Virus record (IMG/VR): IMGVR_UViG_3300042556_001053 | Location: 32,001-96,000 of that record | Strand: one strand, 5' to 3' | Source of the DNA: a virus | DNA: 64,000 nucleotides | Shown: piece by piece, positions 42,651 to 60,598 of the stretch | How the letters are laid out: each line of letters starts with the position of its first letter | Position numbering within the stretch: position 1 is the stretch's first letter | Position numbers and translations under genes: made by a program | Notes under the pieces: model-generated | Database searches by the model: none | Told to the model about the DNA's origin: nothing | The model's input: the letters and a program-made list of their open reading frames with translations, nothing else

Positions 42651-42678
42651 AAAACCTAAGCAAGTTTTAAAACTGCTT
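42651..42678 (+). ncRNA. Small H-type pseudoknot motif, copy 1
   Basis: AAAAC-CTAAGCAA-GTTTT-AAAAC-TGCTT. Confidence 0.55.
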
Positions 42679-42706
42679 GATCTTTTCAAATAAAAAAGCT
42701 CGGGGG

Positions 42707-42727
42707 TTTTCCACAGGCTGTGGATAA
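42707..42727. promoter_or_regulatory. Inverted DnaA-box pair with 3-bp spacer
   Basis: TTTTCCACA-GGC-TGTGGATAA. Confidence 0.6.
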
Positions 42728-42869
42728 GTTTACGTGGTTGTGATTTTTCTCACATTTATTGAGCGTCTCACTATTTAAGACTACTTGCTAGTAATTAGAT
42801 TTTTGTCAGTAGGTAATGATAGGATTACAGAGTAATAAAGTAATTAAACAAAAAGAAAGAGGTTGCCAC

Positions 42870-43079
42870 ATGGCTACTAAACTATACACAATAGAAAACC
42901 TACTTGTAGGAAAAACTTATCGCTCACGAAACCGCCACTTTGAGGGTGTAATCACACACGCAGAAAAGCGTGAAGGAATTTGGTATGGAGAAAATACTGA
43001 GGCGTATGTCGTACAGATTGACACGCCTTCCTATTTGTCAGACCGCTATGCTACTGTTGCAGTAAAGATTGGAGAATAA
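42870..43079 (+). CDS. Hypothetical early protein
   Basis: AGAGGT RBS. Confidence 0.55.
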   Translation: MATKLYTIENLLVGKTYRSRNRHFEGVITHAEKREGIWYGENTEAYVVQIDTPSYLSDRYATVAVKIGE

Positions 43080-43257
43080 TAATGAACACATGGAATTGCA
43101 TGGATTGCTATGATGAGGGCGTACTCTTTTGGGGTAGCACTAATGGCGAATACGATACAGAATTTTGTGAGTGTAACAAGGGTGTTATGCTTTACAACGA
43201 ATACACCGCATGGTACGCTAGTAATGAATTAAACGAATACACATTGGAGAACGCATA

Positions 43258-43476
43258 ATGAACGAATACCTATACTCTGTCACCGCTACCTATGACTCTG
43301 CCTCTGCACCTGTTTGGATTGGTCGTTATAGTGATGCTTTATCTGCCGTTGAAACTTTCCAGCAATTTGTTGATAGTGGAGATGCTAAAGAATACGCAAC
43401 AATTAACCTGTCTGAACCTTCAGGCAAGATGCACACAAAAACTTTCTACACTACAGGATTGGTGGTAACACGATAA
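43258..43476 (+). CDS. Hypothetical early protein
   Basis: GGAG RBS, TAATG coupling. Confidence 0.55.
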   Translation: MNEYLYSVTATYDSASAPVWIGRYSDALSAVETFQQFVDSGDAKEYATINLSEPSGKMHTKTFYTTGLVVTR

Positions 43477-43796
43477 TGGGAAGCAATTTCGCAACAGACC
43501 TATCAGAAAACATTGACATAAGCCTTGAACAGGCTATTGGTTATCACTTACAGGGTAATCACTATCCACCAGTACCGCTAAGCATGGTGCCAGTATGCAT
43601 ACAGGCTATTGACTTTGCTCATGAGGATAAGTGGGACGAGACTATTGAGATGCCTGATGGTATTTCTTATAAGGGCTTAACTGCTGCACCAGTTTGGGCT
43701 ATTATTGAGCAACACCACTTGCACGCATGGCTACCAGAAAACGTTGAAGATTTTAACGAAGACTTAGGATTTGAATTAGGATTGGGGTTAGAATAA
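43476..43796 (+). CDS. Hypothetical protein (HLQGNHYPPVP motif)
   Basis: TAATG coupling. Confidence 0.6.
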   Translation: MGSNFATDLSENIDISLEQAIGYHLQGNHYPPVPLSMVPVCIQAIDFAHEDKWDETIEMPDGISYKGLTAAPVWAIIEQHHLHAWLPENVEDFNEDLGFELGLGLE

Positions 43797-44029
43797 TGAG
43801 TGATACAATAATTGACATGGAACTTGTAAAAGCTGATGCATTGAAAGTAGATGCATTGCAGATTGGCGATCTAATCAGTTACAATGATGAGATTGTTGAA
43901 ATAACTTTTATTGAATGCGATTCAACAGGAGATAACTATGACATTGAAATCAGAAATGATTTTGGTGAAACAGAAGTTGTTCAGTTTGCATTTGATGAAG
44001 AAGTTGATTGGTACGTCTACTTAGACTAA
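43796..44029 (+). CDS. Hypothetical acidic SH3-like small protein
   Basis: TAATG coupling; LQIGDLI motif. Confidence 0.55.
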   Translation: MSDTIIDMELVKADALKVDALQIGDLISYNDEIVEITFIECDSTGDNYDIEIRNDFGETEVVQFAFDEEVDWYVYLD

Positions 44030-44105
44030 AAGGGGCCGAGGCCCTGTGATCTACGCCACAATTACGTAAGTTGATATTTTCTCCCATTTCTGGTAAGATT
44101 ATTAC

Positions 44106-44246
44106 ATGAAGAAAAATGCTGAGGAATTAAGACGATTAATGGAATTACGTCGTTCTAATGCAGCCTCCGCTGTTCCAAATAAAAAGAAATACAATAGAAA
44201 AAAATGTCAGTCCCAAATGCTAAAATTAAGTAAAGAAAGCGAGTAG
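44106..44246 (+). CDS. Basic 46-aa protein (ELRRSNAA...KKKYNR)
   Basis: TTGATA-N17-TAAGAT promoter, leaderless. Confidence 0.5.
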   Translation: MKKNAEELRRLMELRRSNAASAVPNKKKYNRKKCQSQMLKLSKESE

Positions 44247-44251
44247 CCACC

Positions 44252-44974
44252 ATGACTAAATTACTCAGAAGCAAAGATAGGAAAGTAGCAAATGCCGTCA
44301 CCCCTAATGGAAAACAAGCAAGTATCGCCAACACGTTTGGTCTCCCCGCAGGAAAGGCGTACTCATGCCCTGGAGCGACTAGCGTATGCGAGAGTGTTTG
44401 TTATGCTGGCAAATTGGAAAAGGTATTCCCAACAGTAAAGAAAAACCTATTGCACAATTGGGAATTAGTTAAAGACGCTGATCACGATACTATTGAAGCA
44501 TTGCTTGAAGAGATGATTAAAGATTTTAAGGCTGATTGTGTAAAGCGTGAAGCGCCTATGCTATTTCGTATTCACTGGGACGGCGATTTCTTTAATGATA
44601 CTTATACATTCGCATGGAAGCATGTCATCCTTAATAATCCTGATATTCAGTTCTGGGTATACACACGTGTGAAGAGTGCAGCGGTAATGCTTAAGGATAT
44701 CCCTAACCTTAGTCTTTATTACTCTACAGATAGTGAGAATAAGTCTATTGGCGTTACCCTGAAAAAAGATCATGGTATAAAGCTTGCATACCTTGCTAAG
44801 AATTTCTTAGTAGGACAGGCAGACATGAAAGAGATGATTGGCAAGGTAGGCGCTAAGTGTCCTGAGAATAAGAAAGCCATTCCCCTAATCTCAACAAATG
44901 GAAGCGCTTGCGTTTCTTGCTCATTGTGTGTATACTCTAAGAGCGACATAGTATTCTCGTCAAGCAAGAAATGA
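44252..44974 (+). CDS. Gp88-like protein (actinophage gene product 88 family, Fe-S/radical-SAM-like)
   Basis: FGLPAG..SCPGATSVCESVCYA, FRIHWDGDF, FWVYTR and C-terminal C..C..C. Confidence 0.75.
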   Translation: MTKLLRSKDRKVANAVTPNGKQASIANTFGLPAGKAYSCPGATSVCESVCYAGKLEKVFPTVKKNLLHNWELVKDADHDTIEALLEEMIKDFKADCVKREAPMLFRIHWDGDFFNDTYTFAWKHVILNNPDIQFWVYTRVKSAAVMLKDIPNLSLYYSTDSENKSIGVTLKKDHGIKLAYLAKNFLVGQADMKEMIGKVGAKCPENKKAIPLISTNGSACVSCSLCVYSKSDIVFSSSKK

Positions 44975-45163
44975 GGAGATAAATGGAAAGTCTAGTTATC
45001 CTATCACTAATAGGGTTGTTAGTCTTGCTAATCAACCAATAATGTGACATAAATCACACCCGCAAGCGTCTCAAATAGTGAGAAATACAAGAAATGGAGT
45101 TGAAAAATGTCAGTAGGAAATGTTATACTTAATACATACAACAAACTAACAAGGAGAAAAAAC

Positions 45164-45331
45164 ATGACAGTAGCAACAAACACATACAAGGTAGGCGACC
45201 TCTACACATCTCAGAAGTCAAAGGTAACAGGAACAATTCTTGAAATCTCACCTACTGCTAAGGACACAGTTCGTGTGAAGTTAGATGTAAATGGCAACAC
45301 ACGCTGGACAACATGGAAGGCTAATGCGTAA
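45164..45331 (+). CDS. Hypothetical SH3-like small protein
   Basis: AAGGAG RBS. Confidence 0.55.
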   Translation: MTVATNTYKVGDLYTSQKSKVTGTILEISPTAKDTVRVKLDVNGNTRWTTWKANA

Positions 45332-45345
45332 TTAGTTAGTTCTAT

Positions 45346-45371
45346 GTCCTGAGCATGACTCTAAACTGCTC
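45346..45371 (+). ncRNA. Small H-type pseudoknot motif, copy 2
   Basis: GTC-CTGAGCAT-GAC-TCTAAAC-TGCTC. Confidence 0.55.
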
Positions 45372-45435
45372 ACACTAAAAATGTCAGACCTACCCCCTAT
45401 ACTATAAATAAACCACCAAAGAAAAGAGAAACCAC

Positions 45436-45858
45436 ATGGCAAGAAGCAAAGCAATCTCAGTAAAGATAGCAACACCAAAAGTAATCAAGGCACTAGAAAC
45501 TCGTCTAGCAAAGTTACAATCAGACTATGCCTCACAAGAAGCAAACGAAGCAAAGTTTGAGAAGGCAAGAGAAAAGTGGCAGAAGGAAGTAGCAAAGTTT
45601 GCTATGACTCATTTTGCTAAAGCAGAAAACCTACGCACAAACTATCGCTCATGGAATAAGACACTTAATGTTGATTTTGATTTAACAGTTAGTGAGTCAG
45701 ACTTTCCTAAAGAGCCTGAGAAGGACTACGAAGTTCTACACCGCCACTCATACAATGAGATGAAAGAGGAACTAGAAAACGCAATTCGTATCCTCAAGAT
45801 GACAGATGAGGAAACAGTTAGCACTAGCACATACAACGCTATTGCTCGTTATCTCTAA
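45436..45858 (+). CDS. Hypothetical coiled-coil protein
   Basis: 140-aa ORF downstream of a TGTCAG promoter. Confidence 0.65.
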   Translation: MARSKAISVKIATPKVIKALETRLAKLQSDYASQEANEAKFEKAREKWQKEVAKFAMTHFAKAENLRTNYRSWNKTLNVDFDLTVSESDFPKEPEKDYEVLHRHSYNEMKEELENAIRILKMTDEETVSTSTYNAIARYL

Positions 45859-45946
45859 TTAGATTGAGAGATGGGGGAGGGTATTTGACTCCCCCGTCAA
45901 AATCTAGTACAATTAAATTAACCAAACAAACAGAAAGCAGGCCCCC

Positions 45947-46366
45947 ATGGACCAGGTAACAAAAGTAGATAACCATTTCATGACACGAGAATTTCTTGAG
46001 TCACAATTAGTAGCAAACAAAGAGCGTATTGCTCAATTAGAAAAGCACATCCAAGAAGTAACTCAGCGCTCATATGGTGAGGCTGCAGAACGTAACCGCA
46101 TGCGTAATGAAATGCATGAGTGGACCTTAGAACAAGTTAACGATTCAGTTATCTCAGAAGATACTGCACAAGAGATTGCAGACATTTGTGGCTTTGAGTT
46201 AACACAAGAATTTGAATTGGAAGTTTCAGTTCAGTATTCAGTTACAGTTAATGCACGTAATGAAGAAGAGGCAATGAACCTAATGTATGACATTGATTTT
46301 GATTCAGTGTCACATCCTGACGGCGTAACTTATTTGTCATCAACAGTTGACAGAGTGGATATTTAG
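45947..46366 (+). CDS. Hypothetical protein
   Basis: 139-aa ORF with a TTGACT...TACAAT promoter. Confidence 0.6.
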   Translation: MDQVTKVDNHFMTREFLESQLVANKERIAQLEKHIQEVTQRSYGEAAERNRMRNEMHEWTLEQVNDSVISEDTAQEIADICGFELTQEFELEVSVQYSVTVNARNEEEAMNLMYDIDFDSVSHPDGVTYLSSTVDRVDI

Positions 46367-46382
46367 TAGGGGGTCTACTAAT

Positions 46383-46409
46383 AAACCTGAGCATGTTTTA
46401 AAACTGCTC
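46383..46409 (+). ncRNA. Small H-type pseudoknot motif, copy 3
   Basis: AAAC-CTGAGCAT-GTTT-TAAAAC-TGCTC. Confidence 0.55.
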
Positions 46410-46575
46410 CTTCAATTCCCTTGAAAAAATGCTCGGGCCCTGTGAGCTAGATCACACTATGATTTACGACACATTAAAAAAATGTCCATTTTCTCCCATT
46501 TTTAACTATCCTGATTTGCATTTGTCAGTGGCCTTGTGTATACTTAAATTATCAACAACAAAAAGGAGAAAACTC

Positions 46576-47592
46576 ATGGCACATGAACTAGAGACACAAA
46601 ATGGCGTAGCAAGTTTTGCATCATTTCGTGAACCCGCTTGGCATGGATTGGGTACCGTATTTACAGAAGAAAAAAACACAGCAGAGATGTTGCAAGCAGC
46701 AAATCTCAATGGGTGGAATGTTCGTCTGGAAGATTTGGAAACCCCATCACATTTAACAAGCGACAAAAACTATCAGTACGTTTTGCGTACTAATCCTACA
46801 GACAACTCACAGACAGACATTCTTGGTGTCGTAGGTGAGCGCTACCATGTTATGCAGAATGAAGATTTGTTTTCATTTGGTGATAACATTCTAGATGGTG
46901 GTGGACGTTGGGAGACCGCTGGCTCAATCAAGGGTGGACGTGTTGTATTTGGTGCACTAGCACTAGAGCGTGAAACTGTTCTTGACCCTAACGGTGTCGC
47001 AGATAAGGTAAAGACTTATTTACTTATCAACACATCACATGATGGCTCAATCGCTATTCAAGCAAGCATTACACCTGTTCGTGTTGTGTGCGCTAACACT
47101 CTTAACCTTGCATTGAATACAACTAAGCGCAAGGGTGGCGTAAAGCAATCTTTCAAGATTCGTCACACACAGACAGCACAAGGTAAGGTCGCTATTGCAC
47201 GCCAGACATTGGGCATGGCTAACGCTTACATGGATTCATTTGACATCATGGCTAAGGCAATGATTGAAAAAGAAATCAATGCTAAGCAATTTAACGACAT
47301 CATTCTTGCTGCATACCCTCAGCCTGACAAGGACACTAAGGGCGCACTAAAGAAGTGGGAAAACAAGGTTGATGTTATCAATGACATCTACACAGGCCAG
47401 TTTAATGGTATGATTGCTGGTAACGCATGGGGTGCTTTCAATGCACTAACAGAGCGTTTAGATTGGTACCGTTCTGCTCGTGGTGGTTCTAACGAATCTA
47501 TCCTTGCATCTGCAAGTGGTTTTGACCCTGCTATCAATGCAGAAAAAAATCGTTTGCTAAAAGTTGTACAGAATGTTATGCAACTAGCATAA
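46576..47592 (+). CDS. DUF932 / phage-plasmid TIGR03299-family protein
   Basis: MAHELE...PAWHGLG, WETAGSIKGGRVVF, NTSHDGS, TPVRVVCANTL and IRHT; AAGGAG RBS. Confidence 0.85.
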   Translation: MAHELETQNGVASFASFREPAWHGLGTVFTEEKNTAEMLQAANLNGWNVRLEDLETPSHLTSDKNYQYVLRTNPTDNSQTDILGVVGERYHVMQNEDLFSFGDNILDGGGRWETAGSIKGGRVVFGALALERETVLDPNGVADKVKTYLLINTSHDGSIAIQASITPVRVVCANTLNLALNTTKRKGGVKQSFKIRHTQTAQGKVAIARQTLGMANAYMDSFDIMAKAMIEKEINAKQFNDIILAAYPQPDKDTKGALKKWENKVDVINDIYTGQFNGMIAGNAWGAFNALTERLDWYRSARGGSNESILASASGFDPAINAEKNRLLKVVQNVMQLA

Positions 47593-47598
47593 TAAAAA

Positions 47599-47624
47599 AT
47601 CCTGAGCATGATGTAAAACTGCTC
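47599..47624 (+). ncRNA. Small H-type pseudoknot motif, copy 4 (3 nt before tRNA-Asp)
   Basis: ATC-CTGAGCAT-GAT-GTAAAAC-TGCTC. Confidence 0.55.
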
Positions 47625-47627
47625 AAT

Positions 47628-47701
47628 GGTCTGTTAGCTCAGTTGGTTAGAGCGCTACCCTGTCACGGTAGAGGTCGTGGGTTCAAGTCCCATACAGATC
47701 G
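47628..47701 (+). tRNA. tRNA-Asp (GTC)
   Basis: Cloverleaf: GGTCTGT/ACAGATC acceptor, CTACC-CTGTCAC-GGTAG anticodon arm, GTTCAAGTC T-loop; no encoded CCA. Confidence 0.92.
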
Positions 47702-47822
47702 CAAGAATTTAGGCCGAGGCAATTTGGACAAAACGGACATTTTAAGAAGCTATATAATTAATCTCAGAAATTTTAATTAAGAGGACTTGCTTTTTTTCGC
47801 AGATTCCTGTAAAATTAATATC

Positions 47823-47975
47823 ATGAACACCATAAACGAATTAATAAATGAAATCTATGATGACAACTACTCTCACCTAGAGTTTGAGGAAAACATGGGC
47901 GGTATTGATTGTGACTGCCATATCCACACTACACTAAACACTATTGCTAGATATGCAGGAATTGAGGTAGGGTAA
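47823..47975 (+). CDS. Hypothetical small protein (CDCHIH)
   Basis: Leaderless TGTAAAAT promoter. Confidence 0.45.
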   Translation: MNTINELINEIYDDNYSHLEFEENMGGIDCDCHIHTTLNTIARYAGIEVG

Positions 47976-48132
47976 TGTTAGGATATTGTAAAGAAGATCT
48001 AGATGAAATGATTAGCGCTGTTCAATCTGCTTTAACTACTGTTAATCCTGATGATGACCCATGGCTACATGATAACTTATTTAAAGTAACAGAGTTTATG
48101 AATGGCTTATGGGCAGAGGGGTACTTTGACTA

Positions 48133-48324
48133 ATGTGGACTAAGTATAGTTATGTTTGTACTAACTGTGATGCTCTTATTGAGATCACTACCCTGGCAAT
48201 TCCTGAAGACAATGCCTCTTGCACCTGTATGCGTGGAGCTTGGGTAACACGTACTGCAGTAGAGGCTGTGACTAACATCACACCACCAAAAGTTGTAAAA
48301 ATCAACACCAACCCTTATAATTAA
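48133..48324 (+). CDS. Small zinc-ribbon-like protein
   Basis: CTNC...CTC. Confidence 0.5.
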   Translation: MWTKYSYVCTNCDALIEITTLAIPEDNASCTCMRGAWVTRTAVEAVTNITPPKVVKINTNPYN

Positions 48325-48496
48325 TATATGGACATGAACACACTAAGCGAGTATCTAAAGATTCACAAGATAAGTATTGAGCAAGACATGGAGCAAGCCC
48401 TACAAGGTGATGACCCTGGAGAGGGATTCCATTGGGAGTCAGATGACTACTACCTAGGAGCACTAGACGCATACGACTATGTATTGGAGTTAATTA

Positions 48497-48772
48497 GTGA
48501 GTAAGGATTATCCTTTCATACCGCCACACCTAGAGAAGGGCTTAGAGGATATCTCTATCCCTTTGATTGACCTTATGCATGGGCACCTCAAGGTAGAAAT
48601 GCTGGACTGTGAAGAACAATTAAATAATCTATCAGAGACTCAGGATGTGCCTATGTATAACTATGTGCAGGGATACATGGAGGCCTTGACAAACCTATAC
48701 TGCTTGACGTATAATTTAAGTATAGACCGCCAACAAATAGAAAGAGACCACCATGCCAAACTGGGTATATAA
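48497..48772 (+). CDS. Hypothetical protein
   Basis: GTG start with GGAG RBS. Confidence 0.5.
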   Translation: MSKDYPFIPPHLEKGLEDISIPLIDLMHGHLKVEMLDCEEQLNNLSETQDVPMYNYVQGYMEALTNLYCLTYNLSIDRQQIERDHHAKLGI

Positions 48773-49448: not shown

Positions 49449-49683
49449 GACTACTTATCTTATTGAACTAGCCGTTGATGAAGAATGGTTTCATGCAATT
49501 AGTGAACTGACTGCAGATGTACACGAGGGTGAAATATGCGAATGGGTCAGGGTACAGGCAGAGACTGAGACTGATGATCAAGACTGTGAGAACTGCGAAA
49601 GCAATCCTAAAGAGCACCCTGAAGGCAAGTGGTGCACATCATGCAGGGATGAATTTAAAGAGTCTGAGGAGGACGACGAATGA
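49441..49683 (+). CDS. Hypothetical acidic Zn-finger-like protein
   Basis: CENC...CTSC; GAGGA RBS. Confidence 0.5.
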   Translation: MPKTTYLIELAVDEEWFHAISELTADVHEGEICEWVRVQAETETDDQDCENCESNPKEHPEGKWCTSCRDEFKESEEDDE

Positions 49684-49744
49684 ACTGGACACAGCCATCG
49701 TTATTTGATACAATTGAAGAACACACTACAGATAAGGAACAAGA

Positions 49745-49942
49745 ATGCACAAAGAGTCACTACTAGAAGTTGTTAACTTTATTGAAGCCATCATTGATGA
49801 ACTGGAATGTGAACTTATTCCTCTTGATGAGGTTGCAGACACACCAGAAGAACTAACAGCAATGATTGCACTACAAACCAAAATTGATACTCTGTCAGAA
49901 CTAATCCTTGACATGATGTCATTTGATTGGGAGGAGAAGTAA
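49745..49942 (+). CDS. Hypothetical acidic protein
   Basis: AAGGA RBS. Confidence 0.5.
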   Translation: MHKESLLEVVNFIEAIIDELECELIPLDEVADTPEELTAMIALQTKIDTLSELILDMMSFDWEEK

Positions 49943-50292
49943 TGGGAGCTCGTATAAACTTTGTATTTAAGGATGACCTTGATTCAGCAGTGGTCCTATA
50001 CAGTCACTGGGGCCAGACAGAATGGCAGCGGGATATAGCAATGGCGCTAAATCATGCTAAGCCTAGATGGACAGACTCATCATATGCCACACGTATGATG
50101 ATTAGTTACCTTATTCAAGATAGCGTCCTGGAAGAAACAGGTTTTGGTATCTACTCTATCACTGGTACCAACTATGATTTAGGGGAGCAGACAGTAGTTA
50201 TTGATTTAATTAATCATACAGTCACTGATATCCATCCTGTCAAATGGGATAACTTTATCCAAGCATATTTACCTGAGCACGCAGCGGTATAA
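49942..50292 (+). CDS. Hypothetical protein (MGAR...LYSHWG)
   Basis: GGAGGAG RBS, TAATG coupling. Confidence 0.6.
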   Translation: MGARINFVFKDDLDSAVVLYSHWGQTEWQRDIAMALNHAKPRWTDSSYATRMMISYLIQDSVLEETGFGIYSITGTNYDLGEQTVVIDLINHTVTDIHPVKWDNFIQAYLPEHAAV

Positions 50293-50307
50293 AGCAGACG
50301 CTGCAAC

Positions 50308-50350
50308 GGGGGAGTGCGATTTGTGGTGGGTTGCGCTCCCCCCTTATTTT
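50308..50350 (+). terminator. Intrinsic terminator
   Basis: GGGGGAGTGCGA...TTGCGCTCCCCC followed by TTATTTT. Confidence 0.65.
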
Positions 50351-52968: not shown

Positions 52969-53037
52969 GATTTTAGTATACCATATTTGACATTCCCCGT
53001 TTTTTGTGAGACAATAGGTATTGAAAAGGAGAATAAC

Positions 53038-53244: not shown

Positions 53245-53246
53245 AA

Positions 53247-53834: not shown

Positions 53835-54012
53835 TTTATCCCCTTTTCTCTCAATTATAGCATAATGAGATGTGGTATGATATATGTATGAACCCTGGAA
53901 AATGTTTTTATTGTGATAAGGACGCATCATATTTTGATGTCATCATGGATGACGACAACTATCTGATTGCTGATGTATGCATTGATCATCTTAAGATGGG
54001 TCTATCTTCGTA

Positions 54013-54681
54013 ATGATACCAGTTCTATCAATACCAGTTTTAAATAGGTATGATCTGTTGGATAAAAATCTAGAGCTGATTGATTTTCCTATTAAAGAAA
54101 TATTAATTATTAATAATGGAAAAGAAGATTATCATCCAAAAAGAAAAGATTTAAATGTAAGAGTTTTAAATCTACCATCTAATTTGGGCATGGCTGGGTC
54201 TTGGAATTTAACAATAAAGCTTTACCCTCATGAAAAGTTTTGGCTATTCTCTTCAGCAGACACACACTGGATTCCTGGTGCACTAGAAAAATTTTATAAG
54301 TTAAGTAGCCCATCCAAAATGATAGCATCAACTGAAGGGTTTAGTTGTTTTTCTCTTGGAGAAGACATTGTAAGGAAAGCTGGATTGTTTGATGAATATT
54401 TTTATCCTTACATGTGGGAAGACAGCGAGTATGCTGAAAGATTTGAATCTATAAAAAAGAAAAATAATTATAATAATTTAGGCATGGATTTTCATGTAAT
54501 CAAAGTTAATACACCAGAAGGACCAGCTCAAAGTATTAACAGTGATCCAAAATTATTTGAGAAGTATACAGAAACAGCCTATAAAAATGAAGAATATTTA
54601 AAATTAAAAAGATCTCAAGACTTTCAAATAATGGGTAGTTGGGACATAGATAGAAGAAGAGATCAAGAATGGCTACTATAG
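54013..54681 (+). CDS. Glycosyltransferase family 2-like
   Basis: IPVLNRYDLL, IINNG, NLGMAGSWN and GLFDEYFYP..WEDSEY. Confidence 0.75.
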   Translation: MIPVLSIPVLNRYDLLDKNLELIDFPIKEILIINNGKEDYHPKRKDLNVRVLNLPSNLGMAGSWNLTIKLYPHEKFWLFSSADTHWIPGALEKFYKLSSPSKMIASTEGFSCFSLGEDIVRKAGLFDEYFYPYMWEDSEYAERFESIKKKNNYNNLGMDFHVIKVNTPEGPAQSINSDPKLFEKYTETAYKNEEYLKLKRSQDFQIMGSWDIDRRRDQEWLL

Positions 54682-55331
54682 GAATTCTTCCAGCATCTGG
54701 AAAAGCATTAAGAATAGGTGGCATACCAAAGTTTTCTTTGCCTATATCAGATGAAAAGTCTTTATTACAGTGGCATGTAGATCAAATGTTAGAAGTTTGT
54801 GATGAGGTCAGGGTATCTACTAAATCAGAATGGATACCAATCATTCAAAACATGAACATGAATATTAAACTTATTGCTCTTGAGCCATCAACAATGTCTC
54901 ATGCAGTAAAGTTTTTAGTTGGAGATTATAACGATACAGTTTTAGTTGGCATGCCAGATACATATATACACAATACAGATAAAAACATATACAAACAAAT
55001 GATGAGTGTTGCTGGTGATTTAGTTCTTGGAACATGGGAATGTGACAATAATCTTAAGGGCAGTGTTGGTCAGGTTTTATTATCTGGAAACAAAGTAATT
55101 GCTTCTACTGACAAATCATCTGATTGTGAATACCCACATATGTGGGGAACAATGATGTTTAGAAAAAACCTGGTAAGATATATAGACCCAGACCTAGAGC
55201 ATCCAGGAAAGCAAATACAGGAATGGATAGACATGAATCTAGATATAAGATCCTCAAGTTCAGGTGGTAAGTATATGGACATAGGAACATTCTCAGGTTT
55301 AAAACAACTATATAAAGAAATGGATAAATAA
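54669..55331 (+). CDS. Sugar-phosphate nucleotidyltransferase-like
   Basis: GILPASGKALRIGGIPKF, GMPD and YMDIGT. Confidence 0.75.
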   Translation: MATIGILPASGKALRIGGIPKFSLPISDEKSLLQWHVDQMLEVCDEVRVSTKSEWIPIIQNMNMNIKLIALEPSTMSHAVKFLVGDYNDTVLVGMPDTYIHNTDKNIYKQMMSVAGDLVLGTWECDNNLKGSVGQVLLSGNKVIASTDKSSDCEYPHMWGTMMFRKNLVRYIDPDLEHPGKQIQEWIDMNLDIRSSSSGGKYMDIGTFSGLKQLYKEMDK

Positions 55332-55335
55332 TAAA

Positions 55336-56115
55336 ATGTATAATGCCAAACTAAACAATGAGGCTTTTTTTGAAACAGATTTAGATAAACTTTCGGAAAT
55401 CTGGGAACCAAGAAAAGAATATATAGACAAAGATTTATGGGTTATTAGAAACTTTTTGATACCGCCTGAATTAGAATGGCTAAACAATGAAGCAAATGAT
55501 CCAGATGGCTGGTACACAACTATGAGATCTCCTTATGGTGGAAATATAAAAAATAAATTTTTAGGGTATATACCAGATTATGATGAAAATGGAAACATGC
55601 TTGTTCCTACAGAGCATTCAAAATGGAGGGAAAGAGATCATATTAATTATATAGAAAAAAGAATAGAGTCTGTTGTACCTAAATATTTTGGTGGAGCTGG
55701 TGCTCTTCAGTCTTTCTTTGAAGTTTCTGATGAACAAATTTTTCAAGAAACTGGAAGAACAGATATTGATTATGCAATGGGATGGCATTATGAAAGAGAT
55801 GATAGTGACTCAGAAAACCAACAAACAACTATTGTAGAAAACTCAAAAACACAAGGTAAAAGAATTAATAGTCAAGGGAAAATATCAGGATCTTTTAATG
55901 TTTACATTAATGATAATTTTGATGGTGGAATCTTAGAGTTTAGAAATAAAGATTATGTTGTTAAGCCAGAGGTTGGAATGCTGGTGAATATTCCTTTGTA
56001 TAAAGAGTTTGAGCACAGAGTAACAAAGGTTACAAATGGAAATAGACACACGATCTATGGAAGATCTTGGGATATTCAGGATGGAAAATATTTCTCTACT
56101 AACGAAGACTGCTAG
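55336..56115 (+). CDS. 2OG-Fe(II) oxygenase (HxE variant)
   Basis: WHYE...YINDNFDGG...HRV..VTNGNR. Confidence 0.75.
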   Translation: MYNAKLNNEAFFETDLDKLSEIWEPRKEYIDKDLWVIRNFLIPPELEWLNNEANDPDGWYTTMRSPYGGNIKNKFLGYIPDYDENGNMLVPTEHSKWRERDHINYIEKRIESVVPKYFGGAGALQSFFEVSDEQIFQETGRTDIDYAMGWHYERDDSDSENQQTTIVENSKTQGKRINSQGKISGSFNVYINDNFDGGILEFRNKDYVVKPEVGMLVNIPLYKEFEHRVTKVTNGNRHTIYGRSWDIQDGKYFSTNEDC

Positions 56116-56238
56116 ACTTGACTTTAGCTTTCTTGTGGGTTATAATTAATGTATGACTACTAGTTGTATAGAGTGTAATAAGATTGATACAGATGAAGAC
56201 TTTTATGAGACTCATCAGTACATGTCTAACAATAGGTT

Positions 56239-56571
56239 ATGGTGTGTAAATGCCAAAAGAGCCTAGAATTATGCAGATGGACTGGAAAGCTTTGGGATAT
56301 GAGAGGGAGTATAAAGATGGCAAACTCAGATGGATTCCTCAAGAGTTCAAAGAAAATAAACAGGACAAGGATACTTCCTCTTAGATGGATTGGTAATATC
56401 TGTAGTAATATTGCTACTAGGAGTTTGCTTAAAGCTTTTTATTTAGATGAGCAGGGCAATTATGGATACCGTTTCAAATTCCACAGCAAGGTTTGGGTTA
56501 CACTTAATAAACCATATGAGCGTTGGGGTACATACTATACAATTGATACAAGCAAGTGGAATAAAAAATGA
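56239..56571 (+). CDS. Hypothetical basic protein (start uncertain)
   Basis: ORF overlapping the next start (ATGA). Confidence 0.4.
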   Translation: MVCKCQKSLELCRWTGKLWDMRGSIKMANSDGFLKSSKKINRTRILPLRWIGNICSNIATRSLLKAFYLDEQGNYGYRFKFHSKVWVTLNKPYERWGTYYTIDTSKWNKK

Positions 56572-57218
56572 GACAGCCTATTCACGGTGCATTTGAATCA
56601 TATCTGCAACCAGATAGTGGTACATGGAACTGGAATGAATCGTTACAGGCTTGGGAAGAATTAGATAATTATAAGCTACAAGAAGCTTTAACTATTTCTG
56701 GATATCCAAGAAGTGGAAACACATTTATTAATCATGCATTTTTTAAGATGTATGATTTTGCTCACATTAACTTCAATCGTCATACTGTAAAGAGTATTGC
56801 AGAAAGAGATCACACTTTTGTTCCCTTTAGACACCCGCTTGAAGCAATAAGTTCTTGGCACATATATCAGCAGGTACATTTTTTAGATGTAAGGTTTATT
56901 GAAAACGATATCAAATTCTACAATAGGTTTCATGAACAAGCATTAGCAATGAAAGATAAGATAACTTTTCTTGACTTTGATCTATTTAAAAATAACACAA
57001 AATATTTAGAGGATAAGGTTTCTCATATATACAATGTTTCTGCAATGCCAGTAGAGGCTATTGAGGTAAAAGAATTCATGGCTCATAGAAGACTGACTCT
57101 AAATATCCCACGTAATGATGATGAAACTAAGCAAGAGGTAATGTATTTTGTAGAGAAGCAAGAATTGTACAAAATATCTTTAGATCTTTACAATCAAATC
57201 AAGGAATTATCTAATTAG
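56568..57218 (+). CDS. Sulfotransferase-like protein
   Basis: ISGYPRSGNTF (5'-PSB) and PFRHPLEAISSW (3'-PB) motifs. Confidence 0.65.
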   Translation: MRQPIHGAFESYLQPDSGTWNWNESLQAWEELDNYKLQEALTISGYPRSGNTFINHAFFKMYDFAHINFNRHTVKSIAERDHTFVPFRHPLEAISSWHIYQQVHFLDVRFIENDIKFYNRFHEQALAMKDKITFLDFDLFKNNTKYLEDKVSHIYNVSAMPVEAIEVKEFMAHRRLTLNIPRNDDETKQEVMYFVEKQELYKISLDLYNQIKELSN

Positions 57219-58343
57219 CTATAAGCGATTTATCTGCCTATTTACAAACTCTAAGAACTTTCCTGTTAGTAAAGTAAAACCTAGCTCTGGTTTAGAATTA
57301 ACACACTCTGCACTAACCAAATACTTTGCCCACTCCTTAACTGCAGCCTTATTCTTGCCAGAAGTGTCTGCCAGAAGGTAGGATACAATACCTAGAGGGT
57401 ATGCTCCAGGTTCTTTGGTTGCATAGTCGTATGTAAGTATGTTGTTTGAGTCAACTGATGCTTCTCCTAAGAAGGCTGACACATTTGCACTGTCTGGTGC
57501 TACGAAATTACCAGATGCATTTCCTATGTTTGCCACCTTAAGATTAAAGAACTTAGCAAATGATACCTCTGCATATGTAATAGAATACTTAGTCTTTGAT
57601 GCAAGTGTTGCTACACCCTGTGACTGATTTGCTCCAACAACTCTTCCCATGTTATTAATATCATTAATGCTCTTTGGGAATGATGTTGAGAATGAATCAG
57701 ATACAGCTTTTGTCCAAACCTCTGGAGAGTTTGCCTTCATAAATCTAACAAAGTTATTTGTTGTTCCAGAGTTATCAAGTCTAAAGACTACCTTTATCTT
57801 TTGGTTTGGTAGTGTGTAAACAATGCTTTTGGTAGCAGTTCTTAGTATTACTGGATTTCCAGACTTATCCTTAACTAGATTACCAGCCTTATCTTTTCTA
57901 TATATAACTTCTTTAATCTTTCTATTGTTATCAGCCTTAATAGCAGGATCATTCCACATTGTTATTTCTCCCGCAAAAATCTTAGCTACTGTAGTTGATG
58001 ATAAATATAGCTGTCTGTTTCCTGGGATATTGTGCATCACTGCGATAGGTGCTGCAACAACTGGAATGTGGATTACTGATGGCTTCTTTGTTGATGCTGT
58101 GTGTGCAGAGTCTGAGAACCAGAAATCTCCAATGCCCTTATCAGATGAAGTCTTACCAGCACCAGATCCGTTTGCTGAATATGTAACAATGTTTCCTGTT
58201 GACTTGGCATAAGATGATCTGCATTCATCAATAAGGTTTGCTGGAAAAGATGCTCCATTACCAACAATATTTTCTGCTGCAAAAGCAGGGGTAGAAATAG
58301 ATAGAGCAGCAACGACTGCTATTAGGATAAGTTTAATTCTCAT
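57219..58343 (-). CDS. pstS: Phosphate ABC transporter substrate-binding protein
   Basis: Signal peptide; GNGASFP, YSANGSGAG, IFAGEITMWNDPAI, R.DNSGTTNNF and AYPL motifs. Confidence 0.88.
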   Translation of the reverse strand: MRIKLILIAVVAALSISTPAFAAENIVGNGASFPANLIDECRSSYAKSTGNIVTYSANGSGAGKTSSDKGIGDFWFSDSAHTASTKKPSVIHIPVVAAPIAVMHNIPGNRQLYLSSTTVAKIFAGEITMWNDPAIKADNNRKIKEVIYRKDKAGNLVKDKSGNPVILRTATKSIVYTLPNQKIKVVFRLDNSGTTNNFVRFMKANSPEVWTKAVSDSFSTSFPKSINDINNMGRVVGANQSQGVATLASKTKYSITYAEVSFAKFFNLKVANIGNASGNFVAPDSANVSAFLGEASVDSNNILTYDYATKEPGAYPLGIVSYLLADTSGKNKAAVKEWAKYLVSAECVNSKPELGFTLLTGKFLEFVNRQINRL

Positions 58344-58392
58344 AATAATAGTATATAGTAAATAAACTATATTATGGCAAATAATAGGCTCA

Positions 58393-58425
58393 TTTAACCA
58401 AGTGTTCACCTGATGTTCTACTTGA
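58393..58425. promoter_or_regulatory. PHO-box-like 11-bp direct repeats upstream of pstS
   Basis: TTTAACCAAGT GTTCACCTGAT GTTCTACTTGA. Confidence 0.5.
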
Positions 58426-58456
58426 CTTGAACATAGATAAAGTGTATACTTGGTAT

Positions 58457-58693
58457 ATGAGCAAAGACAAAAGAATACTTAAAGATGGATCAGAAGTTGA
58501 TTCATTTGATAGGCCAGTTGATTTAATTATACATACCAAGGCCCCAGAAAAATGGAAATTAGTTGACATGGAAACAGGCGAAGAATACCTTGGCTCTGAA
58601 ATAGGTACTGACTTTGCAGAAATATTAAGAGAAAAGGTTAAAGCAAATAAAATAGGCACTTGGGTAAAAACCAAGGGCAAGCAGCTTGACTAA
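58457..58693 (+). CDS. Hypothetical protein (HTKAPEKWKLVDMETG)
   Basis: Leaderless TATACT promoter. Confidence 0.55.
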   Translation: MSKDKRILKDGSEVDSFDRPVDLIIHTKAPEKWKLVDMETGEEYLGSEIGTDFAEILREKVKANKIGTWVKTKGKQLD

Positions 58694-58720
58694 ACGACTA
58701 TCTTAGGGTATACTGAATAT

Positions 58721-59005
58721 ATGAACCAATTTATGGAAAACTATGCCTCATGGGTGCTTGCCGTCATAGGGGTCTTAGGTATATTTTTTGTTGGCCGTAA
58801 AAATTTTCTTGGCTGGTACATTCTTTTATTCAATGAAACTTTGTGGATAGTTTATGCTGTTGCTACTAAACAGTATGGGTTTATATTTTCTGCTCTCGCA
58901 TATGCAGCAGTATATGTTCAATCACATAGACACTGGAAGGCTTTAGATTCAGAAAAGTTATCTTGGAGGAGTTTTGCCAAGTTGGTCTGGGACCGCAATG
59001 ATTAA
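58721..59005 (+). CDS. PnuC-like small membrane protein
   Basis: Three hydrophobic segments; GRK..GW...NE.LW..Y pattern. Confidence 0.5.
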   Translation: MNQFMENYASWVLAVIGVLGIFFVGRKNFLGWYILLFNETLWIVYAVATKQYGFIFSALAYAAVYVQSHRHWKALDSEKLSWRSFAKLVWDRND

Positions 59006-59204
59006 CATGGAGATTCCTGATCCATTCCAAACCTTTGTAGCCAAGAAGTATGCCAACGCTAAGGGATATGTGCATGACTTCTTTACTGGAGAGTGGTCTT
59101 ACAAGTGTTTAACTTGTAAAGATGATCTTTATGCTCCATCCCGCAAAATTATGACAAAGATTCGTTTATACCATACAAGAAATGAGTGCACAGGTGGATA
59201 CTGA
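58998..59204 (+). CDS. Small C2H2-like zinc-binding protein
   Basis: CLTC...HTRNEC. Confidence 0.45.
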   Translation: MINMEIPDPFQTFVAKKYANAKGYVHDFFTGEWSYKCLTCKDDLYAPSRKIMTKIRLYHTRNECTGGY

Positions 59205-59407
59205 AGAAGAGTTTGACTTAGAGTTTACTGTTGAAGAAATGATTAATATTTATGGTATTAATAGTCTTGAAGATTTAGATAGGATTAACTAATGTCATTA
59301 TGTATGCTAGCAATACTTTTAACAGTACCGTCTTTTTTATTGGGATACTTTATATCGTACCTAGTAATGACTGTTGGAATTAAGCAAGACAAAGAATAGT
59401 GGTATTA

Positions 59408-59481
59408 GCTCCAGTAGCTCAGTTGGTTAGAGCCCCAAACTCATAATTTGGTCGTCGTAGGTTCAAGTCCTACCTGGTGCA
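59408..59481 (+). tRNA. tRNA with CAT anticodon (elongator Met or Ile2)
   Basis: CCAAA-CTCATAA-TTTGG anticodon arm; lacks the initiator GGG/CCC; one T-T mismatch in the acceptor stem. Confidence 0.85.
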
Positions 59482-59519
59482 CGAGATCTTTTATAGATCT
59501 ACTTATATAAGGAGAATAA

Positions 59520-60056
59520 ATGAAAACTGTAGGAGAAAAACTTGGTAACTTTGCCGTTACTGGAGTTAAGCCTGGGGCATTGTCTTATGATGATTCCTCA
59601 TTTGAAGTACTAACGCAAGATTCTTTTCCAGGCAAATGGAAGATCATTGTGTTTTATCCAAAGGACTTTACATTCGTATGTCCGACAGAAATTGTTGCAT
59701 ACGATGCACTTGTAAATGATTTCAATGATCGTGATGCAGTATTGATGACTGGATCAGTTGATAATGAATTCTGTAAGGTTGCATGGAGAAATGCACACGA
59801 TGACCTAAAGAAGACAAACTCATGGGCATTTGCAGATACAGCACATCAGTTGGCTGGAGATCTAGGCGTTCATCATTCATCTGGTGTTACATATCGTGCA
59901 ACATTTATTGTTGATCCAGAGAATACCATTCAGCACATTACGGTAAATAACCTTGATGTTGGTCGTAATGCAGATGAGGCACTTCGTGTGCTTGATGCAC
60001 TACAAACAGGAGAGCTTTGTGCATGCAACAGACCTCTTGGAGGAGAGACTCTATAA
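59520..60056 (+). CDS. ahpC: Peroxiredoxin (alkyl hydroperoxide reductase C)
   Basis: FYPKDFTFVCPTEI, GRNADEALRVLDALQ and LCACN. Confidence 0.93.
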   Translation: MKTVGEKLGNFAVTGVKPGALSYDDSSFEVLTQDSFPGKWKIIVFYPKDFTFVCPTEIVAYDALVNDFNDRDAVLMTGSVDNEFCKVAWRNAHDDLKKTNSWAFADTAHQLAGDLGVHHSSGVTYRATFIVDPENTIQHITVNNLDVGRNADEALRVLDALQTGELCACNRPLGGETL

Positions 60057-60568
60057 TGTCTTGGGTTGATCAGCTTAAGGACAATCTTCCAGAGTATGCA
60101 AAAGACATTAAGTTAAACCTTGATGCAGTAATTAATAGATCATCTATTGATTCTGAGCATGCCACATATCTTGCTCTTGCAGCTGCCTTTTCAACTGGAA
60201 ACGGTAAGCTTGTTGCTTTCATTACAGCAAGTGCAACTGATGAGGTAGAAAGAAATGCTGCATTGACTGCTGGTGCAATCATGGCACAAAACAATGTTTG
60301 GTATCCATATTTAGAAATGGCAGATGATGCTAATCTTACTGGATTACCAGCACAACTTCGTATGAATGCAATTGCATCTCATGGTGGTACAACAAAGGGA
60401 AAGTTTGAGGCATACTCTCTTGCTTCATCTATTGTTGGTAAGTGCCACTTCTGTGTTAAAGCACACTATGAAACATTGAAAGAAGAAGGCTATACTATTG
60501 AGCAGTTGCGTGATATCGGAAGAATTGCAGCAACAGTTAATGCATTAGCAAAGATACTTTCAGCTTAG
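60056..60568 (+). CDS. ahpD: Alkyl hydroperoxide reductase D
   Basis: LPEYAKDIKLNL, MAQNNVWY and CHFCVKAH; TAATG-coupled to ahpC. Confidence 0.9.
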   Translation: MSWVDQLKDNLPEYAKDIKLNLDAVINRSSIDSEHATYLALAAAFSTGNGKLVAFITASATDEVERNAALTAGAIMAQNNVWYPYLEMADDANLTGLPAQLRMNAIASHGGTTKGKFEAYSLASSIVGKCHFCVKAHYETLKEEGYTIEQLRDIGRIAATVNALAKILSA

Positions 60569-60572
60569 AAAA

Positions 60573-60598
60573 AGTCCTGGGTATGACTAAAACTGCCC
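60573..60598 (+). ncRNA. Small H-type pseudoknot motif, copy 5
   Basis: AGTC-CTGGGTAT-GACT-AAAAC-TGCCC (compensatory changes in stem 2). Confidence 0.55.

What the first reader, a model, noticed from the sequence alone, without database searches (positions are those of the whole stretch)
42651..60598. Five copies of a compact RNA pseudoknot with covariation in both stems, each just after a stop codon
Seen: copies at 42651, 45346, 46383, 47599 and 60573 fit S1-CT[S2](A/T)-S1'-..AAAC-[S2']. Stem 1 varies as AAAAC/GTTTT, GTC/GAC, AAAC/GTTT, ATC/GAT and AGTC/GACT. Stem 2 varies as AAGCA/TGCTT, GAGCA/TGCTC and GGGTA/TGCCC. All are on the sense strand 4-16 nt after a stop codon, and one ends 3 nt before tRNA-Asp. 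Compensatory changes point to RNA structure rather than a DNA site. Possible roles (inference): 3' exonuclease block, processing or termination signal, readthrough stimulator, or decoy for a type III toxin (ToxI-like antitoxins are pseudoknots of similar size).
Basis: partly seen in the sequence, partly recalled or inferred. Interest (0 to 1): 0.75.

Follow-up and report, generated by a model that had tools for sequence, protein, structure and literature searches.

The report
Stop-codon-anchored RNA pseudoknot in phages
The five repeats are real copies of a tiny (about 27-base) knotted RNA fold that this phage, and many unrelated phages, place a few bases after the end of a gene. It is in no RNA catalogue I could search and probably acts as a protective end-cap or roadblock on the message, but its function is untested.

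Summary
All five copies exist, all on the + strand, and there are no others in the 114-kb phage genome.

The fold is an H-type pseudoknot: S1 of 3-5 bp closed by C-G, L1 CU, S2 of 5 bp, L2 A/U, L3 ..AAAC. Both stems covary across more than 300 copies in other viral and prokaryotic contigs. Rfam 15 has no match, even at E<=10.

New here:
- The knot is anchored to the upstream stop codon. The gap to the closing C has a sharp minimum of 8 nt, which is just outside a terminating ribosome. It is not anchored to the next start codon.
- tRNA genes recur 3-13 nt downstream of the knot and never immediately upstream. In 79 of 80 relatives the cassette DUF932-knot-tRNA-Asp is kept.
- In this phage, copies 1-3 lie upstream of the next gene's promoter-like site.
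- No hairpin follows the knot, there is no recoding context, and no ToxN was found.
- Five host genomes with knot-bearing loci lack RNase J.

Best reading (about 0.4): a 3'-boundary cap that protects the upstream cistron after downstream cleavage. The main rival is a 5'-to-3' roadblock like the plant-virus coremin element, which it resembles but does not fully match.

This scan's earlier notes include many reports of coremin-like phage pseudoknots on other DNA.

The parts
42651..42678 (+). Pseudoknot copy 1: S1 AAAAC (42651-55), L1 CT, S2 AAGCA (42658-62), L2 A, S1' GTTTT (42664-68), L3 AAAAC, S2' TGCTT (42674-78)
   Evidence: model R1 37.1 bits. S1 starts 5 nt after the TAA stop of ORF 42430-42645. 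S2 carries a compensatory A-U in place of G-C.
45346..45371 (+). Pseudoknot copy 2: S1 GTC, CT, S2 GAGCA, T, S1' GAC, L3 TCTAAAC, S2' TGCTC
   Evidence: 43.7 bits. It lies 14 nt after the stop of ORF 45107-45331 and 10 nt before the promoter-like site at 45382-45403.
46383..46409 (+). Pseudoknot copy 3: S1 AAAC, CT, S2 GAGCA, T, S1' GTTT, L3 TAAAAC, S2' TGCTC
   Evidence: 46.6 bits. It lies 16 nt after the stop of ORF 45947-46366. All 17 sequences aligned from this position (window plus 16 relatives) carry it.
47599..47624 (+). Pseudoknot copy 4: S1 ATC, CT, S2 GAGCA, T, S1' GAT, L3 GTAAAAC, S2' TGCTC
   Evidence: 46.2 bits. There are 8 nt between the DUF932 stop (47590-92, followed by a second in-frame TAA) and the closing C. 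It ends 3 nt before tRNA-Asp. The cassette is kept in 79 of 80 relatives.
60573..60598 (+). Pseudoknot copy 5: S1 AGTC, CT, S2 GGGTA, T, S1' GACT, L3 AAAAC, S2' TGCCC
   Evidence: 33.5 bits. S1 starts 4 nt after the TAG stop of ORF 60017-60568 (CMD domain). S2 has one compensatory G-C and one U-G wobble.
46429..47592 (+). DUF932 gene flanked by copies 3 and 4. The longest ORF starts at 46429; the alignment places a conserved start ATG at about 46577, which I did not check further.
   Evidence: Pfam PF06067 4.7e-47. 428 relatives in IMG/VR, the best 80 at 89-97% identity. A DUF932 gene is the ORF upstream of the knot in 18 of 150 sampled copies.
47628..47702 (+). tRNA-Asp(GTC), co-oriented, 3 nt after copy 4
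   Evidence: ARAGORN and Rfam tRNA 69 bits. Knot-then-tRNA at 3-13 nt occurs 22 times among 344 copies.
42430..42645 (+). Upstream ORF of copy 1 (71 aa, no family match)
45107..45331 (+). Upstream ORF of copy 2. The frame also holds the promoter-like site 45108-45129, so the true start is probably later.
45947..46366 (+). Upstream ORF of copy 3 (139 aa, no family match)
60017..60568 (+). Upstream ORF of copy 5 (183 aa, CMD/carboxymuconolactone-decarboxylase-like domain)
45382..45403 (+). Promoter-like TGTCAG-N10-TATACT, 10 nt after copy 2. Sites of the same type lie at 42804-42825 (125 nt after copy 1) and 46523-46544 (113 nt after copy 3).
   Evidence: 13 matches in the window against 1.17 expected. 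The site before DUF932 is conserved in the aligned relatives.

Best explanation
The element is a self-folding, roughly 27-nt H-type RNA pseudoknot that marks the 3' boundary of a cistron. It is transcribed as part of the upstream gene's message. It sits just beyond the footprint of a ribosome terminating at that gene's stop codon, so translation never melts it.

The inferred function is as follows. When the long phage transcript is cut downstream, either by RNase P at an adjoining tRNA or by an endonuclease in the G-poor unstructured linker that follows the knot, the knot becomes the 3'-terminal structure of the upstream message. There it stalls 3'-to-5' exonucleases. The result is a stable mRNA that is still fully translatable and still ends in a normal stop codon.

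Shown: the fold, its strand, its anchoring to stop codons, and its position before tRNAs and promoter-like sites. Inferred: the cleavage events and the resistance to exonucleases.
For: The fold is proven by covariation in both stems.

Anchoring to the stop codon: among 198 copies, the gap from the stop codon to the closing C of S1 has a sharp floor. There are 40 copies at 8 nt, 27 at 9 nt and only 5 below 8. With the stop in the A site (+4 to +6), the first obligatory S1 pair then falls at about +13. From my own knowledge, not checked here, that is just outside the ribosome's mRNA-entry/helicase point at about +11 (Takyar et al. 2005). The distance to the next start codon is broad by comparison.

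Asymmetry around tRNAs: 22 of 344 copies are followed by a same-strand tRNA gene at 3-13 nt, and none has a tRNA closer than 28 nt upstream. In 80 loci chosen only by DUF932 homology, 80 of 80 have the knot after the stop and 79 of 80 then have tRNA-Asp. RNase P cleavage there would leave the knot plus a 3-13-nt tail as the mRNA 3' end.

Position relative to promoters: in this phage copies 1-3 lie upstream of the next gene's promoter-like site. They therefore belong to the upstream transcript.

Downstream flank: the 28 nt after the knot are less structured than control flanks, and G is only 2-10% at +2 to +7.

Host range: validated copies occur in (pro)phage loci from many bacterial phyla and from Methanobrevibacter. 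That argues for an intrinsic property or a near-universal enzyme class.
Against: There is no transcript-end data and no nuclease assay for this or any phage copy.

A plain GC-rich hairpin could do the same job. That leaves the invariant CCU and AAAC and the fixed geometry unexplained unless a special tertiary fold is needed.

The nearest characterised look-alike, coremin, blocks enzymes coming from the 5' side, not the 3' side (PMC6546385, PMC10321173).

The sharp spacing could also reflect genome compaction combined with a rule to stay out of the ribosome.

The tRNA adjacency is dominated by one lineage, the DUF932-tRNA-Asp cassette. Only about five cases (tRNA-Arg, tRNA-Ser) lie outside that cassette.
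Confidence: 0.4

Rival explanations
1. A 5'-to-3' mechanical roadblock that works like the coremin / xrRNA_WCC element. The knot would stop something travelling down the RNA (a ribosome that missed or has finished the stop, RNase J, 5'-end-dependent RNase E scanning, or Rho). It would thereby insulate or shield the downstream cistron.
For: The architecture is close to coremin and its Watson-Crick variant: a 3-bp S1 closed by C-G, a loop that starts with C, an ..AAACU spacer, and loop-to-spacer pairing (searches compared). In the papers' assays coremin stalls Xrn1 and scanning ribosomes, and it stimulated frameshifting in rabbit reticulocyte lysate and in a screen run in E. coli (PMC10321173, PMC10520033). 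The knot sits exactly at the leading edge of the terminating ribosome.
Against: The hairpin hp2, which coremin needs for Xrn1 resistance, is not enriched after the phage knot. No RNase J above the family cut-off was found in five host genomes that carry knot-bearing loci, including one complete chromosome. Placing the knot 3-13 nt before a tRNA that RNase P will cut out, or upstream of the next gene's own promoter, gives a 5'-side barrier little to protect. No tRNA-then-knot arrangement is seen.
Confidence: 0.25
2. A binding site for a conserved protein: a host factor that binds 3' ends or A-rich RNA, a ribosomal component, or a phage protein. Binding would regulate the decay or translation of the flanking genes.
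For: The loop residues (CCU, AAAC) are invariant while the stems covary. Copies are enriched in early-gene modules next to DUF932, ArdA and HSP20 genes. ORFs followed by a knot prefer TAA (75% against 53%) and avoid TGA.
Against: The carriers span many bacterial phyla and an archaeon, and no protein family is shared by the upstream genes. The invariant loop bases are equally well explained by tertiary contacts, as is proposed for coremin.
Confidence: 0.12
3. A transcription pause or a factor-dependent termination or attenuation signal sitting in the 'terminator slot' between a stop codon and the next promoter.
For: Copies 1-3 lie between a stop codon and the next promoter-like site with no other terminator there. 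The flank after the knot is G-poor and rich in C and U.
Against: There is no U-tract. tRNA genes 3-13 nt downstream have no room for a promoter of their own, so polymerase must read through. The phage uses a canonical intrinsic terminator elsewhere, at 50308-50342.
Confidence: 0.07
4. A recoding signal (stop-codon readthrough or -1 frameshift) or a small ligand-sensing riboswitch similar to preQ1-I.
For: The spacing from stop codon to knot equals that of recoding pseudoknots. Size, H-type topology and an A-rich L3 recall preQ1-I (my own knowledge, not tested beyond the Rfam search).
Against: Extensions past the stop have medians of 8, 8 and 4 codons in the 0, -1 and +1 frames, and 0 of 165 copies have an X XXY YYZ heptamer. 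One copy runs straight into a tRNA. No Rfam riboswitch family matches even at E<=10. There are several copies per genome behind unrelated genes and no expression platform.
Confidence: 0.04
5. A decoy or antitoxin RNA for a type III toxin (ToxI-like).
For: It is a pseudoknot of similar size, and it is carried by phages.
Against: The copies are single and 1-13 kb apart, not a tandem array. No ToxN family hit was found in the genome, although the control genomes were also silent, so that negative is weak. The anchoring to stop codons is not explained.
Confidence: 0.02

Closest known systems
Coremin motif (xrRNA-C) and its Watson-Crick variant xrRNA_WCC, from beny-, cucumo- and picorna-like RNA viruses (PMC6546385, PMC10321173, PMC10520033)
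   Same: A short S1 (3-4 bp) closed by an essential C-G pair. The first loop base is C. The spacer is N-U-U/A-A-A-A-C-U with essential A's proposed to dock in the S1 minor groove. In xrRNA_WCC the loop pairs antiparallel with the sequence after the A-run (GAG/CUC there, GAGCA/UGCUC here). The core is tiny and portable, and sometimes lies in intergenic regions.
   Different: The phage loop is 8 nt and S2 is 5 bp (sometimes 6), against a 4-6-nt loop and 3 bp. The C of AAAC is unpaired here but forms an S2 pair in xrRNA_WCC. The 3' hairpin hp2 that coremin needs for Xrn1 resistance is not enriched. The carriers are DNA phages of bacteria and archaea. The phage element is anchored to stop codons. 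Common descent is not shown.
Viral recoding pseudoknots. The luteovirus (BWYV) and MuLV comparisons rest on my own knowledge; the SRV-1 frameshift signal is from PMC10321173.
   Same: Compact H-type fold with a 1-2-nt L1, a 0-1-nt junction and an A-rich L3. The 5-8-nt spacing from the A-site codon is the same.
   Different: There is no slippery heptamer and no downstream open frame, and the A-site codon here is a stop. Membership test not met.
preQ1-I riboswitch aptamer (Rfam RF00522)
   Same: About 30-nt H-type pseudoknot with an A-rich L3 ending in AAAC(U).
   Different: No match at E<=10. It lies after genes rather than in 5' leaders. No link to queuosine genes was seen among the upstream ORFs, and there is no expression platform.
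Bacterial 3' stabiliser stem-loops (REP elements, terminator hairpins), from my own knowledge
   Same: The same proposed job and the same position, immediately 3' of a cistron.
   Different: Those are plain GC-rich hairpins without a conserved sequence. This is a sequence-constrained pseudoknot shared across phyla.

Membership tests
Coremin / xrRNA-C | hp1: a 3-4-bp stem with a C-G loop-closing pair (G-C abolishes function) | tested here: met
   The closing pair is C-G in 116/116 and 82/82. Rare G-C variants were seen in L076.
Coremin / xrRNA-C | Loop 1 consensus YGAD (4 nt) or YGNNAD (6 nt) | tested here: inconclusive
   The phage loop is 8 nt, CUGAGCAW. It starts with Y and ends with A-D, but the length and interior differ.
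Coremin / xrRNA-C | Conserved 10-nt spacer GUUAAACUAC, with A16-A20 essential | tested here: inconclusive
   AAAC is invariant and the following U nearly so, but the next base is G rather than A and the 3' part forms S2.
Coremin / xrRNA-C | A second hairpin (hp2, at least 4 bp) directly 3' of the spacer, required for Xrn1 resistance | tested here: not met
   A hairpin of 4 bp or more at offset 0-4 occurs in 36% of copies, against 38% of shuffles and 43-47% of control flanks. The downstream 28 nt are the least structured flank.
Coremin / xrRNA-C | Stalls a 5'-to-3' exoribonuclease | not testable with these tools
   This needs an enzyme assay. Five host genomes show no RNase J above the cut-off.
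xrRNA_WCC | Antiparallel Watson-Crick S2 between the loop and the sequence after the A-run, proven by compensatory changes | tested here: met
   302 of 338 hits have 5/5 S2 pairs. Compensatory types include AAGCA/TGCTT, GGACA/TGTCC, GGGTA/TACCC, GGCCA/TGGCC and GGGCG/CGCCC. The register differs by one base from the published S2.
-1 PRF or readthrough pseudoknot | A slippery heptamer or leaky stop, plus a long open frame beyond it | tested here: not met
   0 of 165 copies have a heptamer. Median extension is 8, 8 and 4 codons.
preQ1-I riboswitch (RF00522) and every other Rfam 15 family | A covariance-model match | tested here: not met
   Only tRNAs match, both at gathering threshold and at E<=10 over 45300-47720.
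Type III antitoxin (ToxI-like) | A tandem array of repeats next to a ToxN-type endoribonuclease gene | tested here: not met
   The copies are dispersed singles. PF13958 was not found in the genome, but the control was also silent, so that negative is weak.
Intrinsic terminator | A GC-rich hairpin followed by a U-tract, ending transcription | tested here: not met
   The terminator scan hits none of the five copies. tRNA genes lie 3-13 nt downstream.

The most novel reading that the evidence does not exclude
The same minimal knot design (short C-G-closed S1, A-rich strand docked in its groove, loop-to-tail S2) is a general nuclease- and ribosome-proof RNA plug used by viruses of bacteria, archaea and eukaryotes. 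The phage version would be the first natural pseudoknot whose role is to cap the 3' end of a cistron: it would resist 3'-to-5' exonucleases while standing exactly one ribosome footprint from the stop codon. That would define a new, portable class of mRNA boundary element.
Probability: 0.25. Interest if true: 0.85.

Novelty: new variant of a known kind. Interest (0 to 1): 0.66.

Why it matters
If the knot controls where phage messages end and how long each cistron survives, it is a widespread layer of phage gene regulation that no paper I could search describes. At 27 nt it would also be host-independent, which would make it a useful synthetic-biology part for stabilising or insulating genes in operons. 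Its likeness to the coremin element of eukaryotic RNA viruses raises a further question. Either one RNA fold has been invented or exchanged across virus realms, or small pseudoknots can block exonucleases from the 3' side. Mycobacterium phage Labelle, a Patiencevirus with host M. smegmatis, carries a canonical copy 8 nt after the gp85 stop. That makes the question directly testable.

Tried and rejected
- Rfam at gathering threshold and at E<=10: only tRNAs.
- Megablast and blastn of the region against cultured phages: nothing, or only weak DUF932-gene hits to Streptomyces phages.
- Literature searches by motif sequence and by topic: no description of a phage element. The 10,006-candidate phage RNA survey does not discuss it.
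- tRNA-like 3' end: I suspected this because some copies are followed by ACCA. Only 16 of 188 are, and those are mostly the start of an adjoining tRNA-Asp gene. Rejected.
- A coremin-type hp2 hairpin after the knot: not enriched.
- Recoding: rejected.
- ToxIN: no ToxN found, but the negative is weak.
- RNase J as the universal target: no match above the cut-off in five host genomes.
- Pseudomonas and Thalassarchaeaceae hits from the genome scan are chance matches inside long ORFs, so I did not count them as hosts. 82 of 122 genome hits pass the filter (S1 of 3 bp or more, not inside a long ORF).
- The Erwinia-phage hit has only a 2-bp S1. The Vibrio-phage hit has L1 CC and lies opposite tiny annotated ORFs. 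Both are doubtful.
- The Patience genome paper holds no transcript-end data.
- A sixth S2 pair (L1 U with the A at +1, 62% A and 66%) is possible but not supported by covariation.

Full report
WHAT IS THERE. The window is bases 32001-96000 of a 114,443-bp IMG/VR phage genome. It encodes a portal, an HK97-type capsid protein, a prohead protease and a class II ribonucleotide reductase. The five reported elements are present exactly as described. A structural scan of the whole genome and a covariance model each find these five, all on the + strand, and no others.

Each copy reads: S1 (3-5 nt, ending in C), CU, S2 (RRGYA), A/U, S1' (starting with G), 1-3 variable nt, AAAC, S2' (UGCYY). ViennaRNA, which cannot draw pseudoknots, folds each copy into the S2 helix at about -6 to -7 kcal/mol.

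IS IT REAL? In an alignment of 116 copies (A1) the two inner variable S1 pairs are paired in 116 of 116 copies, using all four Watson-Crick types. The closing pair is always C-G. None of 500 shuffles reaches the observed covariation score, and sliding the partner by 1-3 columns lowers pairing from 98% to 25-39%.

To test S2 without bias I built model R1 with S1 as the only structure. Its extra hits in the fetched loci carry S2 variants that are compensatory. A regex scan that ignores S2 pairing gave a bimodal result: 302 of 338 hits have 5/5 pairs, 6 have 4/5, and 30 have 3 or fewer, which is close to my rough estimate of about 21 chance hits. Compensatory types occur at all five S2 positions: AAGCA/TGCTT, GGACA/TGTCC, GGGTA/TACCC, GAGTA/TACTC, GGCCA/TGGCC, GGGCG/CGCCC and AGGCA/TGCCT. 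Numerous G-U pairs would be A-C on the opposite strand. In 80 loci chosen only by a neighbouring protein, all 258 model hits lie on the gene strand, and S1 covaries again in that set. The element is therefore an RNA H-type pseudoknot. Rfam 15 has nothing for it.

WHERE IT SITS. Most copies fall between co-oriented ORFs. The distance from the upstream stop codon to the closing C of S1 has a sharp floor: 40 copies at 8 nt, 27 at 9, then a decaying tail, and only 5 of 198 below 8. The window's copies sit at 9, 16, 19, 8 and 7 nt. With the stop codon in the A site (+4 to +6), an 8-nt gap puts the first obligatory S1 pair at about +13. From my own knowledge, not checked here, that is just outside the ribosome's mRNA entrance and helicase point at about +11. 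This is also the spacing used by recoding pseudoknots.

The distance to the next start codon is broad by contrast, at 18-40 nt with many copies above 60. So the knot is tied to the end of the upstream gene. No copy uses the knot's own UGA or UAA as the stop codon.

The flanks are A-rich upstream. Downstream they are G-poor (2-10% G at +2 to +7) and less structured than control flanks.

tRNA AND PROMOTER CONTEXT (new here). Across 344 copies, 22 are followed by a same-strand tRNA gene at 3-13 nt (Asp, Arg, Ser). None has a tRNA closer than 28 nt upstream. I then fetched 80 loci using only the window's DUF932 protein (89-97% identity). All 80 have the knot right after the DUF932 stop, and 79 then have tRNA-Asp. 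These knots carry compensatory changes in S1 (AAATC/GATTT, AATTC/GAATT, CCAC/GTGG, ATATC/GATAT and others) and in S2. A tRNA gene 3-13 nt downstream has no room for its own promoter, so RNA polymerase must read through the knot. RNase P cleavage would then leave the knot plus a short tail as the 3' end of the DUF932 message.

In this phage, copies 1, 2 and 3 also lie 125, 10 and 113 nt upstream of TGTCAG-N10-TAnnnT sites. That pattern occurs 13 times in the window against 1.17 expected. The site before DUF932 is conserved in the aligned relatives. From my own knowledge it resembles the actinobacterial RecA-NDp/PafBC promoter. The knot therefore belongs to the upstream transcription unit or to read-through RNA, not to the primary transcript of the next gene. 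The phage uses an ordinary intrinsic terminator elsewhere, at 50308-50342.

WHO CARRIES IT. Upstream ORFs are mostly small and unannotated. Recurrent families are DUF932 (18 of 150), DUF7249 (6), HSP20 (4) and ArdA (2), which looks like an early or accessory-gene flavour. Of 122 genome hits, 82 pass the filter (S1 of 3 bp or more, not inside a long ORF). Cross-referencing the filtered loci with the titles that one search listed, they come from Saccharibacteria and other Patescibacteria, Firmicutes, Bacteroidota, Cyanobacteria, Verrucomicrobiota, Desulfobacterota, Alpha- and Betaproteobacteria, Spirochaetota, Omnitrophota, Chloroflexota and Methanobrevibacter. The Pseudomonas and Thalassarchaeaceae hits are chance matches in coding sequence.

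Short-query BLAST hits to cultured phages include Mycobacterium phage Labelle, cyanophages S-RIM4 and S-EIVl, and Paracoccus, Lentibacter and Lak phages. I checked only the Labelle, Erwinia and Vibrio hits with the model. Labelle has a canonical copy 8 nt after the gp85 stop; the Erwinia and Vibrio hits are doubtful.

MECHANISM. I favour a 3'-boundary cap (about 0.4). The knot stays folded because the terminating ribosome stops just short of it. After downstream cleavage it becomes the 3' end and blocks 3'-to-5' exonucleases. The upstream cistron is left stable and still ends in a normal stop codon. The anchoring, the one-sided tRNA adjacency, the position before promoter-like sites, the unstructured G-poor flank and the host-independent spread all fit this reading. 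None of them proves it.

The main rival (about 0.25) is a 5'-side roadblock like coremin. Earlier notes of this scan pointed me to coremin, and I read the primary papers. The phage knot shares coremin's C-G-closed 3-bp S1, the loop-initial C, the AAACU spacer and, with xrRNA_WCC, the loop-to-spacer S2. It lacks the hp2 hairpin that coremin needs for Xrn1 resistance, and its loop and S2 are longer. Five host genomes with knot-bearing loci show no RNase J above the family cut-off. Four of these are metagenome-assembled genomes and may be incomplete; one is a complete chromosome. A barrier just before a tRNA or a promoter would also protect little.

The remaining readings fit less well. A protein-binding site (0.12) has no shared partner protein across the carriers. 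A pause or termination signal (0.07) conflicts with the read-through into tRNA genes. Recoding or a riboswitch (0.04) fails. A ToxI-like decoy (0.02) fails on copy arrangement, whose negative is weak because the control was silent. As a side observation, ORFs followed by a knot use TAA in 75% and TGA in 8% of cases, against 53% and 30% for other ORFs on the same strand. That comparison is not corrected for relatedness.

NOVELTY. The element is not in Rfam 15, and I found no paper describing it in phages. This scan's earlier notes include many reports of coremin-like phage pseudoknots on other DNA: a word search returned 90 notes in at least 74 genomes, of which I saw only the top entries. So this is a re-discovery within the scan. 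I class it as a new variant of a known kind: small viral H-type pseudoknots that act as mechanical blocks.

Noticed in passing
window 41115-46544 (+): 41115, 41987, 42804, 43036, 44205, 45108, 45382, 46523: TGTCAG-N10-TAnnnT occurs 13 times in the window against 1.17 expected. Eight are on the + strand ahead of early genes, and the one before DUF932 is conserved in the aligned relatives. It looks like the actinobacterial RecA-NDp/PafBC promoter, which hints at an actinobacterial host and often leaderless genes.
   Followed up: partly
window 42708-42731; relatives in alignment A4, columns about 75-100: After knot copy 1 there is an inverted pair of DnaA-box-like sequences (TTTTCCACA / TGTGGATAA). 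Several relatives carry tandem TTATCCACA boxes at the equivalent place before DUF932.
   Followed up: no
window 41030, 41808, 42694, 46427: A recurring GCTCGGG motif followed by TGTG..CACA palindromes (for example TGTGAGCTAGATCACA at about 46441-46456), lying between knots and promoters. It may be an operator.
   Followed up: no
window 46429-47702 and loci L246-L325: The DUF932 protein is 89-97% identical across 80 contigs of very different sizes, and 428 relatives were found. The tRNA-Asp that follows it varies much more in sequence. The cassette DUF932-knot-tRNA-Asp is nearly invariant (79 of 80).
   Followed up: partly
window 47590-47595: DUF932 ends in tandem in-frame stops (TAA TAA). ORFs followed by a knot prefer TAA and avoid TGA overall.
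   Followed up: partly
window 50308-50342 (+): A strong canonical intrinsic terminator (16-bp stem, T-run) after ORF 49927-50292. The phage has ordinary terminators as well as the knots.
   Followed up: no
L054:3083-3143 (-), L048:6626-6671 (+): Knot variants with a 15-35-nt hairpin inserted between L2 and S1', which shows that this junction tolerates insertions. A sub-type with L3+S2' = AAAAAGGCTC (4-bp S2) recurs in L007, L028, L044, L049 and L056.
   Followed up: no
window 57219-58409 (-) and 59520-60568 (+): Auxiliary genes: a PstS-like phosphate-binding protein, an AhpC/TSA peroxiredoxin and a CMD-domain protein. tRNA-Met and tRNA-Ile are nearby without knots.
   Followed up: no
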